Shown here: in pieces, positions 4,058 to 9,050 of the stretch
Position numbering within the stretch: position 1 is the first letter of the stretch
Layout: the number at the start of each line of letters is the position of its first letter
From: Podarcis muralis
Taxonomy: Eukaryota
Direction: 5' to 3'
DNA length: 64,000 nucleotides
Assembly: GCF_964188315.1 (NCBI RefSeq)
Contig: NC_135663.1
Location: forward strand, 20,956,001-21,020,000
The notes under the pieces: generated by a model
The model's database searches: none
Told to the model about the DNA's origin: nothing
What the model saw: the letters and a program-made list of their open reading frames with translations, nothing else
Made by a program: the position numbers and the translations under genes

Positions 4058-4919
4058 TAACAAACAAATGCCCAATGCTATAAGAATGAATTCCATTTTA
4101 TTTCTTGTCTGCTGCTGTTAAGCTGTTTTTCAATGTCAAAACATACGCACTGCAATGTCAGGAAGTAAGAACTTTCTGATTTCTTACAGAAAGGAAGTAA
4201 GAACTTTCTCATTTAGCTGTTGCAGTGGCAAAGTGCATAGAGTACATGGCAAGATTAGATCTTTCTCAGGAAAGCTAACAAGAACAGGCATGGTTCCTGT
4301 GTTTAAGAGAGGCTCAACTTCTATTGTTTGAGAAACGACAGGAAGGATAAGAGTTCACCAAGAATGGAATGTATCGCCTGTTAAGCATTAGAATCATAGA
4401 ATTGTGGAGTTGGAAGGGACCCCAGGGCCATCTAGTTCAACTCCCTGCAGTGTAGGAATCCTGTCCACAGCCTTCCCCAAGTGGCTCAAAACACCAACCT
4501 TCTAGCTAACAGTGATTGTTCAGGCGAAATAGCTAGGGCATCTTTTTCAGTTTTCCACTGAAATCTTCACCAGAGCCAGTGATTCTGTTTTTCTGAGGTT
4601 TGGCTGGCCATCTTCCCCAACTGTGTTGCACACCACCAAATTGCGGTAAGTTGTCTGGAGGTCATGTAGGAGCTTTGCTGCCCCACCCATCCAGGGAAGC
4701 AAGAGACATTACAGTGGTACCTCGGGTTAAGTACTTAATTTGTTCTGGAGGTCCATTCTTAACCTGAAACTGCTCTTAACCTGAAGCACCACTTTAGCTA
4801 ATGGGGCCTCCTGCTGCCGCCGCGCTGCCAGAGCACGATTTCTATTCTCATCCTGAAGAAAAGTTCTTAACCCGAGGTAATATGTCTGGGTTAGCAGAGT
4901 CTGTAACCTGAAGCGTATG

Positions 4920-5700
4920 TGTCAGAGGCTGCCCTAGGTCCCAGCTCACAAAGGACCAACGCCAGGTCGTTGTTATATGAAATAGTCTTTATTTAAGTTC
5001 TGTTTCTTTCTTACATTCTCAGCGTGCAGCTCTACGTCTCGAACTCTAGACCGCCGAAGCTCCGTCTGAGTCTCCTCCCCCCAGGCACCAGTTTAAGACC
5101 CTAGTCTTGCTCCACCTCTTCCTTTGTTCTTTCCTCCTCTGGGTCCTCTTGCCCGCCGAGGACTCGCCTTTCCTAGACACTTCAGAAGCTGAGTCTCCCG
5201 AGTCCTCCCCCAGCCTTCGGCGGGCTTTAGGACCTGGTTCCCACTCCGGGCTGTCAGCAGTCCCGCGCGCCTGTACATTTGAACTTGGCGCGCGCGCGCA
5301 GCCCGACACCTTCCTCCTCACTGCTACACAGCTCCTGTCGCTACTCTCTTCCCCAGGGGTGCTGCCTGGCTCTGACTTCCCCTCCATTCCCTCACTCTCC
5401 GACGGGGGCGTGGCCAGACCTGACTCCTCTTCCCCCCCACTGCGCTCCGGTGGGGAAACTGGTCCTGATCTCCAGCTACTACTTTGGGAGTCTCCGCTGG
5501 CCCCTTGCTTCTGGTGTGTCCCCTCTGGGACCCCCTTCTCCCTGGCCGTCGGCGCCCCCTTCTGGGAGTCTTCTGATTCACTGGAGAGGCTTATGGAATC
5601 TCTCGAGTCACTGTCATTCTGTTCTCCGCTACCCTCAGATTCCTCCCCCTCGCTCTCCATTTCCTCTCTCCCCTGTGGCTCAGTCCCTGAGCCCCTGACA
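4920..5700 (-). mobile_element. Solo LTR (781 bp) with long internal ORF
   Basis: TGTCAG...CTGACA termini; exact 5-bp TSD GTATG (4915-4919, 5701-5705); AATAAA near the 3' end on the minus strand; homologous to 7994-8773. Confidence 0.9.
5046..5699 (-). other. Putative LTR-encoded ORF (217 codons, acidic N-half and basic C-half, ending LNWCLGGGDSDGASAV*)
   Basis: Frame open from LTR base 2 to TAG. The last 92 aa align without gaps to the 7994-8773 copy at 56/92 identity, with third-position-biased differences. Confidence 0.55.
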
Positions 5701-5849
5701 GTATGTAACCTGAAGCGTATGTAACCCGAGGTACCACTGTATCATAATTCAAAGACGCAGCCTAGTGAAACACTCAAGGAGAATGCAAAGCAGGACTGGT
5801 GAGCGGTGTGCCCTGTGTCAGCAGCAGGCAGCATGGTGGGGCAGCAGAG

Positions 5850-6060
5850 CTCCCCTGATCTCCAGACAACTGTGTCACTGCTTACTGGGGTATGGTGGAG
5901 GGGAGAGCAGCATAGTGCAAGCTCACTGGTGGAGCCAATCTGACATTCCTGCTGGTGTGTTTGCACCACACTGACTTCCCCACCACCTTGCCCCTTCACC
6001 TCTCCTCCCTGTCAGGTCAGGTGACCACTATTATCCTACCACACTGCCAGCTACTCATCT
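5850..6060. repeat. Unclassified old interspersed repeat (related copies near 10600-10775, 26590-26766, 42700-42910)
   Basis: Shared core (TGCAAATGCACCAG...GATTGGCTC...GGTG...TTTGCACCACACTGAC) recurs in these intervals. Boundaries are approximate. Confidence 0.45.
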
Positions 6061-7993
6061 GGGAAGAGGGTATGTGACTGAGGAGGGTGGTTTTTAAAGG
6101 TGGGTCCTTAGGGCCACATAAAGAGGTGGGGGCACATTTGGCCCCTGAACCTGAGTTTCCTCATTCCCATACTGCTACCCGTCTGAATGTATGTTCTCAT
6201 TTTCCTAAATGAACTTTACTTTTGCTTAATACTTCATTTGTTTTTATCCTGGGTTATTCGGGAGCTCTGAAATTCACCAGTGCCTCCTCCCTCTTGAAAA
6301 TACATTATTTTTAAATATAATACAGAACAGAGCTAAAAGCAGGGTGACTGGAACACCACCCCAAATTTAAAAAGGCACTCGTGGATCTATATCACCTTTA
6401 ATCCTGGTGGTTTTAAAACCCCTTTCAATGGTGGCAGCCACCCTATGATTAGTGTTGGCATGACAGCTAGTTGGCCTTCATTAACTTGTAACTGTCAAAG
6501 GTCACACCAAACAGGCTCTATGAGAGGCAAATATGCAAAGATGACTTAAAGTACCCGGTGAGATTATGCTAACCCATTTTCACAATTGCGGAGCTTGAAG
6601 TACTGATACATTTCCATTCATTAGCTGACTTTTATGCCTGAAATCCGTGGATCATATTTAATTAAAAGCTTTAAACTCCCAAACAGTGGCTGTTTTACTT
6701 GCCTCTTAAAAGAGTATTTGAAAAATATCTGGCTATGGATAATATTATGTTTCAGGGCTGAATATATCCTGATATATTCTACATTCTATAGCTATTCTAT
6801 AGCTACAGAGTAAATAATATCCACAGGCCAGTGACGTAAACTAAAAATCAGCCATACAGCTGGCTTATAGTTAGTGAAGATCAAGTTTCAGCTCTGAGCT
6901 TGTTAACAAGTTACACAGCTAAATATATACCCAAGCCACTAAAGGAGACATCAGAAATGGGTGGTTGTAAAGGTCTGTTTATTCAGCTATATATGTCCTT
7001 TTTTGGCTATTAAAGCCAGTTAGTAAAGTCAGTAACAAAAAGGAAATAGTTTCCATAGTGGAAGTAGCTATACCCTCCAGATTAGGGATGGGGAAGAAAT
7101 CTGGTTTGCATTTCAATGAGAAGTTGCTTCCTTCATACTTTTTGAATTAACACACAAATCACAAGACAATTATCCTTTGAAATTCTCACGTCTCTGAATT
7201 TTGCGATGTAGTTCTCCAACCAAGCAATGTGCACTAAAATGCATATATTAGGAGAATATGCTTGAAGAAATGCATGTATTAGTAAAAAACTATTTACAAA
7301 AATGAGTATATTAGGAGGAACACACAATAAAATGCTAATGAATTTTCACCAGTACTTTTTATAAAATGACGTATTGCTGCAGAGATGTGTGGAATCCAAT
7401 TTAAGAGTGAGTTTCTCTTTTGAGTTTTTCCCTTTTTCCAAACTGACAGCTTCAGCCACATCTTCTCCAGATGTTGTTGGACTATGACTCCCATCATCCT
7501 TGACCCCTGGCCACGCTAGGAATAGGCACCTAACAACATCTGGAAGGCACTGCATGCCCCACCCCGCTCTTCACTAGCAAGTGCTGTTACTGCTGTTGCT
7601 AATAGTTCTAAAAGAAAAAGCACATTACACGATTAGCAGATCATGTATGTGATGCAAAGAAGGAATTTACATGCAAGCAAGTTTCATCTGGAGTTTCTTT
7701 TGAGCCTCTACTCGATTTACAAACTGGCCTTTCTCCTCAAGAGTGGGAGCCACTGCACAGAAAGTTGCAGTCAGTGCCAATGGAGAGGCCTTGCTCTTTT
7801 GGCTTGCAAGCGACGGACTCTCTACAGCTAAACTATTGCTGCTTGTTTGCTTTCTGTTGAGCTCCTGGGGAATGTTTTAAAAGACTGCTCTGGGGCACCC
7901 ATATATCCTAAGATGTCTGAGGAAATGAGCGTGCGATTGGGTGCTGCCTACAGAGTTCCTATAGGCCTTGCTGGAAAAAACAAGGATAGTACC

Positions 7994-8773
7994 TGTCAGG
8001 GGTTCAGGGAGAGAGGCACAGATGAGGGAGGAGACTGAGAGCGAGGGGGAAGAATCCAGGAACGAGGAGGAGGAGGATGACAATGACTTGAGGGCTTCCA
8101 TGAGTCTCTCAAGTGAATCGGAGGATTCCCAAAAGGGGGCGCCCCTGGTCAGGCCAAGGGGAGCCACAGGGGGGACTCGTCAGGAGCAGGGGAGCAGCAG
8201 GGAAACCCCGAGTGGGAGTGGGAGATCGGGGCCGGCTTCCCAGCTGGAACGGAGTGAAGAGGGTGGAGTTCCCAGTGTGACACAAGGAGCAGAGCAGGAA
8301 GCAGAGAGGGGAAGGAGGGGCAAGACGTCCTGCCGGAAGGGGTGGAGAGTAGTACAGAGAGTAGTATAACTGTCAAGAGGAAGGTCAGGGGTAGCGAACG
8401 CGCGCCAAGTTCAAATGTGGAGGCGCGCGGAAATGCGGAGAGCCCGGAGGAGGAGCCTGGTCCCAAAGCACGGAGGAGGGGGGAGCAGGCGTCTGGGGAC
8501 TCAGCGTCAGGGGAAAGCAGGAGGGAAGGAACCCAGGGGGGCAGAAAGACCCTGCGGAAAAGGAAGGACAGGAAGAGGTGGACTAGCACAAGCCTCTTAA
8601 ACTGGTGTAGAGGCGGGACTGATTCAGAGGGGACTTCAGCGGTCTAAGCGTAACAGACGTGGGGCTGCGCGCCTCGGCTGTGGAACAAACAATGTACTTC
8701 AATAAAGACTTTTGTAAATAAAGTGGACTTGGCGTTGGTCTCTTGTGAGCTGGGACCTGAGGCGGCCCTGACA
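7994..8773 (+). mobile_element. Solo LTR (780 bp), same family as 4920-5700
   Basis: TGTCAG...CTGACA termini; exact 5-bp TSD GTACC (7989-7993, 8774-8778); AATAAA near 8701; internal frame 7995-8647 carries a net 1-nt frameshift. Confidence 0.9.
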
Positions 8774-9050
8774 GTACCTATCAGCTGTTCAGGAAAGGAA
8801 CAATGTTGTTCTTCTTGCTCTCCAAGTCAGCTAATAGTGCTATCACCACTCATGCATACCTAGCCTGCCCCAGATGTAATGAGTCCCACTGAGATGAGAA
8901 AGAAGCATTGTCAGTTGTGCCAAGGAAATGTCTTGTCAAAGGATCACATTGTAAGAACGACCCACCCGCAGGGACAAAAGGTCCAAGTATGATAAACATA
9001 AGAATCTAGGATCAGATCCCTGTTGGATCAGACCGAGGGTCCATCTATTT

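What the first reader, a model, noticed from the sequence alone, without database searches (positions are those of the whole stretch)
4920..8773. Protein-coding signature inside solo LTRs: a ~217-codon U3 ORF conserved between two divergent copies
Two ~780-bp solo LTRs (TG...CA, own 5-bp TSDs, opposite orientation) each have a frame opening at base 2 (VRGSGTEPQGREEMESEGEES vs VRGSGREAQMREETESEGEES) and ending at the same place (SAV*). The spans are 654 nt (intact, 5699-5046) and 653 nt (7995-8647, one net frameshift). The last 92 residues align with no gaps at 56/92 identity, and many substitutions are conservative (R/K, D/E, V/L, S/T). In the last 23 codons I count differences at codon positions 1:2:3 = 4:4:14, with 8 purely synonymous changes including TAG/TAA. 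That is the pattern of purifying selection on a protein, not of neutral LTR drift. The protein has an S/E/D-rich N-half, an NLS-like basic patch (KRTQRRKEQRKRW / RKTLRKRKDRKRW) and a conserved LNWC. ORFs overlapping LTR U3 are established for accessory genes such as MMTV sag, HIV nef and foamy-virus bel2; by analogy this may be an undescribed accessory or transactivator gene of a squamate LTR retroelement (inference). Caveat: GA-rich strands are stop-poor, so openness alone is not evidence; the codon bias is.
Basis: partly seen in the sequence, partly recalled or inferred. Interest (0 to 1): 0.82.

Follow-up and report, generated by a model that had tools for sequence, protein, structure and literature searches.

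The report
Integrase tail running into retrotransposon LTR
The reading frame inside these two lizard solo LTRs is real and under protein-level selection, but it is the last ~217 codons of a Gypsy retrotransposon's Pol protein, which reads through into the 3' LTR, rather than a separate viral-type accessory gene; this long tail likely stays on the integrase and is predicted to help it reach the nucleus and chromatin.

Summary
In detail: two solo LTRs with 5-bp TSDs, the same open frame, 56/92 identity and 4:4:14 codon bias. The accessory-gene reading does not. In full-length copies, Pol (PR-RT-RH-IN-chromodomain) reads through the polypurine tract into the 3' LTR and stops at the same SAV*. Across 18 LTR clusters pN/pS is 0.40 (0.35-0.47) in this frame, like the tail upstream of the LTR (0.42) and above the enzyme core (0.07-0.13). 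An 11-nt self-priming site co-varies with the PBS and puts the inferred transcription start in the last codons, so a solo LTR's own promoter would miss the frame; 'LNW' overlaps the TATA-like box. A second family (58% Pol identity) has the same layout. Plant CRM chromoviruses are the precedent; my searches found no vertebrate report, though UniRef gene models already contain the tail. New lead outside the LTR: a conserved helix-linker-FxGF motif after the chromodomain that resembles LEDGF/HRP2-binding motifs; binding is unproven. Against: one cluster has only 6 of 27 LTRs in frame.

The parts
4920..5700 (-). Solo LTR, copy A (cluster 13 of family I), 781 nt, TGTCA...TGACA, TSD GTATG at 4915-4919 and 5701-5705
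5046..5699 (-). Last 217 codons plus stop of the Pol tail, intact, no start codon of its own; S/E/G-rich, net charge -18 in the first 120 aa and +10 in the last 97
5112..5150 (-). Basic patch KRTQRRKEQRKRW (NLS-like; function inferred)
   Evidence: counterpart in family II
5091..5096 (-). TATA-like TTAAAC, the L-N codons of 'LNWC', 29 nt before the self-priming site
   Evidence: promoter role inferred
5057..5067 (-). 11-nt self-priming site (inferred 5' end of the RNA, start of R); the same sequence is complementary to the PBS in full-length elements of sister cluster 18
4988..4993 (-). AATAAA polyadenylation signal, downstream of the stop codon
4712..5739 (.). Short TA-flanked inverted-repeat element (MITE-like; label is mine) into which copy A inserted
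7994..8773 (+). Solo LTR, copy B (cluster 6 of family I), 780 nt, TSD GTACC at 7989-7993 and 8774-8778
7995..8647 (+). Same Pol-tail frame, broken by one frameshift near 8316; 51 of 61 copies of this cluster are open to the stop
8597..8602 (+). TATA-like TTAAAC (L-N codons)
8626..8636 (+). 11-nt self-priming site, complementary to the PBS of full-length cluster 6 elements
8701..8706 (+). AATAAA polyadenylation signal

Best explanation
The frame is the C-terminal ~217 codons of the Pol protein of a Gypsy (Tf1/Sushi-type chromovirus) retrotransposon, whose Pol reads through the polypurine tract into the 3' LTR; it likely remains as a disordered tail on the integrase and is predicted to serve nuclear import and chromatin tethering. 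Shown: full-length elements are LTR - gag (capsid, CCHC) - pol (PR, RT, RNase H, IN, SH3, degenerate chromodomain, ~360-aa tail) - LTR, with no stop between integrase and the LTR frame and no room for env. The tail is under purifying selection in the pol frame only. Inferred: the full-length RNA starts at the self-priming site at the end of U3, is translated to Gag-Pol by a -1 frameshift at the conserved GGGAAAC, and still contains U3 of the 3' LTR before the poly(A) signal, so the ribosome reads U3 as protein. Reverse transcription then copies U3 to both ends, and LTR-LTR recombination leaves solo LTRs that carry the coding remnant with no start codon and upstream of their own transcription start. 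Selection acted on the replicating master elements, not on these two solos. Predicted, untested: the terminal basic patch is an NLS, and the helix-linker-FxGF motif behind the cage-less chromodomain binds a host TND domain (LEDGF or HRP2).
For: In-frame continuity: L062 has one 1508-aa frame from protease to SAV*. Nine of 26 elements examined have such a single frame (the 20 fetched were chosen partly for long open frames). UniRef P0001, P0003 and P0004 cross the junction in frame for three other clusters. Domains. Selection: pN/pS 0.41 in frame versus 0.87-1.40 in four other frames; bootstrap 0.40, 0.35-0.47; IQ-TREE omega 0.35 with kappa fixed at 1. The tail upstream of the LTR gives 0.42 and the core 0.07-0.13. 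U3 length varies by whole codons (209-232 aa) while the part after the stop varies in single bases (mostly 125-127 nt, open copies only). Self-priming: 39 of 41 LTR-PBS junctions have a perfect complement of 10 nt or more at the same LTR place, in 6 sequence variants (five of the rows are duplicates of one insertion). Replication in family II: Pol of 1374 aa runs ~104 codons into a 408-nt LTR, with pN/pS 0.51 for the LTR part and 0.23 for its last 35 codons, against 1.1-1.6 in other frames. GGGAAAC is present in 7 of 7 elements checked and is PEG10's slippery heptamer (PMC2800197, passages).
Against: Cluster 10 has only 6 of 27 LTRs in frame; the break is a long G-run of variable length. Either assembly error or slippage is high there, or that lineage spread with a shortened tail. 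At the PPT junction 39 of 63 measurable copies are in frame (71 examined), but only 9 of 21 outside the B groups, and the B set was picked by protein similarity. By eye 22 of the 24 breaks lie in G-runs, at different places in different copies. No full-length element of copy A's own cluster was collected; its link to Pol rests on sister clusters (L122). dN/dS used one open copy per cluster, which leaves out broken copies. There is no protein-level evidence that the tail is made. The functions given to the tail are inference from sequence pattern only.
Confidence: 0.88

Rival explanations
1. The tail is made as part of Pol but is cut off by the element's protease and works as a separate small nuclear protein (for example a regulator of the LTR), which would partly rescue the first reader's idea.
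For: The tail is long (~360 aa), low in hydrophobic residues (22 of 217 in the LTR part) and ends in a conserved basic/LLxW motif in both families. Cleavage sites cannot be read from sequence here.
Against: In known chromoviruses the chromodomain or CR motif is described as the integrase C-terminus, including where it lies in the 3' LTR (PMC3059260 and PMC3605345, passages). No sequence or feature match to any known regulator was found.
Confidence: 0.15
2. An independent accessory gene expressed from its own start, either the ATG two codons before the LTR or a spliced RNA using the GTAAG just behind the 5' LTR.
For: Family I has ATG in frame in the PPT and GTAAG after the 5' LTR in most copies. 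RNA reads cover U3.
Against: Family II has Val at that position and GCAG behind the LTR. The GTAAG bases adjoin and overlap the self-priming PBS. Solo LTRs lack the ATG. No GT-AG joint and no start peak in two bulk RNA runs (about 12% of each read), though depth was low. U3 reads lie on both strands with loose ends at the LTR start, as expected from host read-through. Selection continues unchanged upstream of the ATG (0.42).
Confidence: 0.05
3. The selected product is on the antisense strand, in the frame that shares third codon positions with the sense frame.
For: That frame has only 0-2 stops and pN/pS 0.48.
Against: Third-position transversions follow sense degeneracy (0.04-0.05 at 2-fold, 0.11-0.13 at 4-fold sites) and hardly follow antisense degeneracy. 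The frame is interrupted in the B clusters. Its openness follows largely from the open sense frame.
Confidence: 0.02
4. No protein constraint: a GA-rich, stop-poor promoter region with DNA-level conservation mimics coding.
For: The TATA-like box and self-priming site lie within the last 25 codons.
Against: pN/pS stays 0.42 (0.35-0.49) without the first 5 and last 25 columns. The other two sense frames carry 3-16 stops. 18 of 19 clusters have open copies in the same frame despite up to 36% divergence.
Confidence: 0.01

Closest known systems
Tf1/Sushi group chromoviruses (V-clade: Sushi-ichi, Amn), Ty3/Gypsy
   Same: Ty3-type capsid, PR-RT-RH-IN order, Tf2-like SH3, chromodomain, self-priming PBS, PEG10-type GGGAAAC heptamer. 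Self-priming as a group feature: PMC6317226 and PMC4600332, passages.
   Different: A ~360-aa selected tail follows the chromodomain and fills U3 up to the transcription start. I found no report of this for vertebrate members. No tree against named references could be built.
Plant CRM group A chromoviruses (CR motif in the 3' LTR) and the beet Bingo elements
   Same: The gag-pol frame extends into the 3' LTR (PMC3059260 Fig. 4 legend; PMC3605345; passages).
   Different: CRM group A has the CR motif in place of the chromodomain and primes on tRNA-Met. Here the chromodomain is kept upstream of the PPT, priming is self-priming, and the host is a reptile. Likely convergent.
Retroviral ORFs overlapping U3 (MMTV sag, HIV nef, foamy bel2; recalled, not from a call)
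   Same: Protein coding within U3 of the LTR.
   Different: Those are separate genes behind env with their own mRNAs. This one is fused to pol, has no env before it and shows no sequence match.
TND-interacting motifs (TIM/IBM) of IWS1, MLL1, JPO2, JIL-1 that bind LEDGF/HRP2
   Same: Hydrophobic anchor, 8-9-residue linker and FxGF, conserved at one offset behind the chromodomain in both families and tandem in family II. Definition: PMC9987994 and bioRxiv 10.1101/624023, passages.
   Different: The family I linker is S/T-rich, not acidic. No binding data exist. The motif lies upstream of the LTR, outside the window's copies.

Membership tests
Tf1/Sushi chromovirus (Ty3/Gypsy) | LTRs with TG...CA ends and 5-bp target duplication | tested here: met
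Tf1/Sushi chromovirus (Ty3/Gypsy) | Ty3-type gag; pol order PR-RT-RH-IN | tested here: met
   Pfam; best PDB match Ty3 Gag-Pol, E 6e-133
Tf1/Sushi chromovirus (Ty3/Gypsy) | Chromodomain behind the integrase | tested here: met
   Weak in family I: Pfam E 0.011-0.047, below the curated cut-off; HP1 match E 0.0026, with HP1's W and Y in WKGY replaced by R and T. Clear in family II (E 2.5e-6).
Tf1/Sushi chromovirus (Ty3/Gypsy) | Self-priming PBS complementary to the element's own LTR | tested here: met
   39 of 41 junctions, 6 co-varying variants; family II by eye
Tf1/Sushi chromovirus (Ty3/Gypsy) | RT/IN phylogeny grouping with Sushi-ichi or Amn elements | not tested
Retroviral U3 accessory gene (sag/nef/bel type) | ORF separate from pol, with its own start | tested here: not met
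   Continuous with pol; the upstream Met is not kept in family II
Retroviral U3 accessory gene (sag/nef/bel type) | Spliced or internally started mRNA | tested here: inconclusive
   No GT-AG joint or start peak in the bulk runs, at low depth
Retroviral U3 accessory gene (sag/nef/bel type) | Retroviral context (env gene, tRNA primer) | tested here: not met
   Pol runs to the LTR with no env frame; the PBS pairs with the LTR
CRM group A | [quoted passage not shown] | tested here: met
CRM group A | CR motif in place of a chromodomain; tRNA-Met priming | tested here: not met
   Chromodomain retained upstream of the PPT; self-priming. The tail was not scanned with a CR-motif model.
CRM group A | Centromeric localisation | not tested
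   Centromere positions are not known here; solo LTRs are spread along chromosomes
TND-interacting motif (TIM/IBM) | FxGF motif, conserved as protein | tested here: met
   Family I, 59 distinct copies: F 57, G 58, F 56, with TTT/TTC variation. Family II, 35 copies: G 35, F 35, first position F 16, L 17, M 2. Chance of one FxGF in shuffled tails is 1-3%, of two 0.04%.
TND-interacting motif (TIM/IBM) | Acidic or S/T-rich linker of 8-16 residues after a hydrophobic helix | tested here: inconclusive
   The pattern fits: acidic 8-9 residues in family II, S/T-rich 8 residues in family I. The helix is not shown; the structure model was uninformative.
TND-interacting motif (TIM/IBM) | Binds a TND (LEDGF or HRP2 IBD) | not testable with these tools
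   Needs a binding assay

The most novel reading that the evidence does not exclude
These lizard chromoviruses have lost the methyl-lysine cage of their chromodomain and instead carry a cellular-type TND-interacting motif (helix-linker-FxGF) plus a long LTR-encoded tail, so their integrase docks on LEDGF/HRP2 by direct mimicry of host partners such as IWS1 and MLL1. That would be a retrotransposon reaching the same host tether as HIV by a different, motif-based route.
Probability: 0.3. Interest if true: 0.78.

Novelty: new variant of a known kind. Interest (0 to 1): 0.46.

Why it matters
It explains why thousands of candidate solo-LTR copies in this genome look like genes, and why gene predictors call them (hypothetical proteins labelled Podarcis lilfordi). 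It shows an LTR whose U3 is promoter and protein code at once, with the TATA-like box and the self-priming site inside the last codons, a layout I found described only for plant chromoviruses. If the FxGF motif binds LEDGF or HRP2, it gives a direct handle on how vertebrate chromoviruses choose integration sites, and a natural second solution to LEDGF tethering.

Tried and rejected
Complex prediction of lizard PSIP1 IBD (P0035, residues 401-492) with the family I FxGF peptide: no answer, score 0.01, alignments not used, peptides untested by that tool; it is not evidence either way. AlphaFold of chromodomain plus tail from a 7-row alignment: mean pLDDT 42 and even the chromodomain did not fold, so it says nothing about disorder. 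Run search: no RNA holder listed; only the raw-read lays were used. Splice-donor idea for GTAAG behind the 5' LTR: no GT-AG joint; 4 reads cross LTR to PBS unspliced; the one other joint (121 nt, ends AG..GA, single-cell runs) is non-canonical and more likely a deleted copy. PDB search with the family II FxGF stretch: 0 hits. Pfam, Rfam and ESM Atlas on the LTR frame or region: nothing; the Atlas on chromodomain plus motif gave only chromodomain clusters under 0.9. Profile search of 1.84 billion representatives: 5 hits, three labelled Podarcis and two unnamed, so the range beyond wall lizards is open. Family I versus family II tails align only at the terminal basic/LLxW motif, probability 7%, E 0.005: homology of the LTR parts is weak evidence. 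Antisense frame rejected. Earlier scan findings: none returned. A kappa-free codon model and a likelihood test against omega = 1 were scripted but never ran, because those scripts failed earlier; the bootstrap stands in.
Full report
Observation. The two elements are as described. Copy A (4920-5700, minus) and copy B (7994-8773, plus) are solo LTRs with their own 5-bp duplications, about 70% identical. The frame from LTR base 2 is open for 217 codons in A and broken once in B, near 8316. The last 92 residues are 56/92 identical, and the last 23 codons differ 4:4:14. Only 18 of 3000 dinucleotide shuffles gave any open sense frame. The host is likely a Podarcis wall lizard: its PSIP1 exon is identical to a record labelled P. 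muralis.

What the LTRs belong to. Genome searches gave 4009 and 2431 first-look candidates, of which 40 each were scored. Most top hits are solos, but several come in pairs about 5.7 kb apart. These full-length elements have gag (Ty3 capsid, CCHC) and pol (protease, RT, RNase H, integrase, Tf2-like SH3, weak chromodomain); the best solved relative is Ty3. In L062 a single 1508-aa frame runs from protease through the polypurine tract into the 3' LTR and ends at the same SAV*. Nine of 26 elements examined show this (chosen partly for long frames). UniRef gene models labelled P. muralis cross the junction in frame in three further clusters, and P0001 is complete. The LTR frame is therefore the end of Pol.

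Selection. The 190 distinct LTRs collected fall into 19 clusters up to 36% apart; 132 are open to the homologous stop and 18 clusters have open copies. With one open copy per cluster, pN/pS is 0.41 in the pol frame, 1.39 and 0.87 in the other sense frames, and 1.40, 0.48 and 1.07 antisense. The bootstrap interval is 0.35-0.47, and 0.35-0.49 without the first 5 and last 25 columns. IQ-TREE gave omega 0.35 with kappa fixed at 1. The antisense frame at 0.48 shares third positions with the sense frame; transversions follow sense degeneracy, which rejects it. In eight elements the enzyme domains and chromodomain give 0.07-0.13 and the tail upstream of the LTR gives 0.42. The LTR part thus evolves like the rest of the tail.

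Results against. Cluster 10 has 6 of 27 LTRs in frame, the break being a long G-run of variable length. At the junction, 39 of 63 measurable copies are in frame (71 examined), but only 9 of 21 outside the B groups. Most breaks sit in G-runs at differing places, as expected from sequencing error or slippage, but I could not prove that. No full-length element of copy A's own cluster was collected.

Promoter and priming. The PBS is complementary to an 11-nt site in the last codons of the frame. Of 41 junctions (those starting G-T/G-A-A), 39 have a perfect match of 10 nt or more, and PBS and LTR change together across six variants. This is the self-priming described for Tf1/Sushi elements, where the PBS pairs with the 5' end of the RNA (PMC4600332 and PMC6317226, passages). 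The inferred start site therefore lies about seven codons before the stop. TTAAAC, the L-N of 'LNWC', lies 29 nt upstream, and AATAAA follows the stop. A solo LTR's promoter would transcribe away from the frame, while the full-length RNA carries it at its 3' end. The gag/pol overlap is a -1 shift with GGGAAAC in 7 of 7 elements, the heptamer of PEG10 (PMC2800197, passages).

RNA. Raw reads from two bulk and two single-cell runs under the same species label give thin coverage of the internal region, mostly with the first mate on the minus strand in the bulk runs (sense RNA if the libraries are stranded in the usual way). U3 is covered on both strands with loose ends at the LTR start. There was no GT-AG joint and no start peak in the bulk runs. 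Depth is too low to exclude a rare spliced RNA.

A second family. A neighbour in locus L184 has 58% Pol identity and 408-nt LTRs. Its Pol (1374 aa in 3 of 4 loci fetched) also enters the LTR at D-V-R and ends about 104 codons later in a basic run plus LLCW, with the self-priming site in the last codons. pN/pS over 11 copies is 0.51 in the LTR part and 0.23 in the last 35 codons. It has Val where family I has Met before the LTR, which argues against a separate start. The two tails align only weakly, at the terminal motif.

A lead outside the window. Sixty-nine residues behind the chromodomain's ILDSR, both families keep FxGF with a Phe 9-10 residues before it; family II has a second copy. The residues are conserved with synonymous variation. 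This fits the TND-interacting motif: helix, linker of 8-16 acidic or S/T residues, and FxGF, with FxGF required by all known LEDGF and HRP2 partners (PMC9987994, passages; bioRxiv 10.1101/624023, passages). Family I's chromodomain has R and T where HP1 has W and Y; that these are cage residues is recalled. Binding is not established. A search for retrotransposon, integrase, LEDGF and FxGF together listed one paper, on fly JIL-1.

Comparison. It meets the tested features of Tf1/Sushi chromoviruses; a tree with named references was not possible. It works like plant CRM group A in reading into the 3' LTR (PMC3059260 and PMC3605345, passages; the latter reports the same for several Bingo elements) but fails CRM membership. 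It fails the defining test for a retroviral U3 accessory gene. Searches for a vertebrate precedent listed none. The library lacks most subscription papers and Repbase, and I read passages only, no supplements, so an earlier description may exist. PMC4340606 (passages) added only background. The tail was found only in records labelled Podarcis or unnamed.

Verdict. A real coding feature with a different explanation from the one proposed: the selected C-terminal tail of a chromovirus Pol, carried passively in solo LTRs. New variant of a known kind; interest 0.46, raised by the FxGF lead (probability 0.3, interest 0.78 if true).

Noticed in passing
G000-wide; positions, tallied: Family I copies that keep internal sequence are concentrated at chromosome ends (65 of 90 within 2 Mb, about 5% expected) and on contig C20 (58 of 148; 2% of the genome; possibly the W chromosome, a guess). 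Solo LTRs are not (3 of 46), and family II only mildly (10 of the first 72 non-C20 hits). Two hits on unplaced contigs were left out, and some end copies are segmental duplicates. Retention or targeting is unexplained, and it does not obviously fit gene-body tethering.
   Followed up: partly
L184, L197-L200, L208-L235: A second chromovirus family with 408-nt LTRs, including a very young burst (LTR pair 100% identical in L199; many hits with identical scores) and tandem FxGF motifs.
   Followed up: partly
window 4712-5739; L048; L115: Three independent insertions from three LTR clusters sit in the same repeated motif of the same MITE family; TSDs favour C/G at both ends and T/A in the middle (65 TSDs).
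   Followed up: partly
L068 (G000:C1:136971500-136978618); L119: Elements with LTRs of two different clusters (72-73% identical) and non-matching flanks, likely recombinants between elements near chromosome ends.
   Followed up: no
L067 and L046 (C20:28.10 Mb): Two LTRs of different clusters lie side by side within CCCTAA telomere-type repeats, at an internal position of C20.
   Followed up: no
cluster 10 LTRs, e.g. L136-L153, LTR position about 232: A G-run of variable length inside the coding U3 leaves most copies out of frame; assembly error or natural slippage is not resolved.
   Followed up: partly
window about 10800-57300: Tandem cluster of alcohol dehydrogenase-like genes: repeated exons seen in ORF translations and self-alignment; the name is from recalled motifs.
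   Followed up: no
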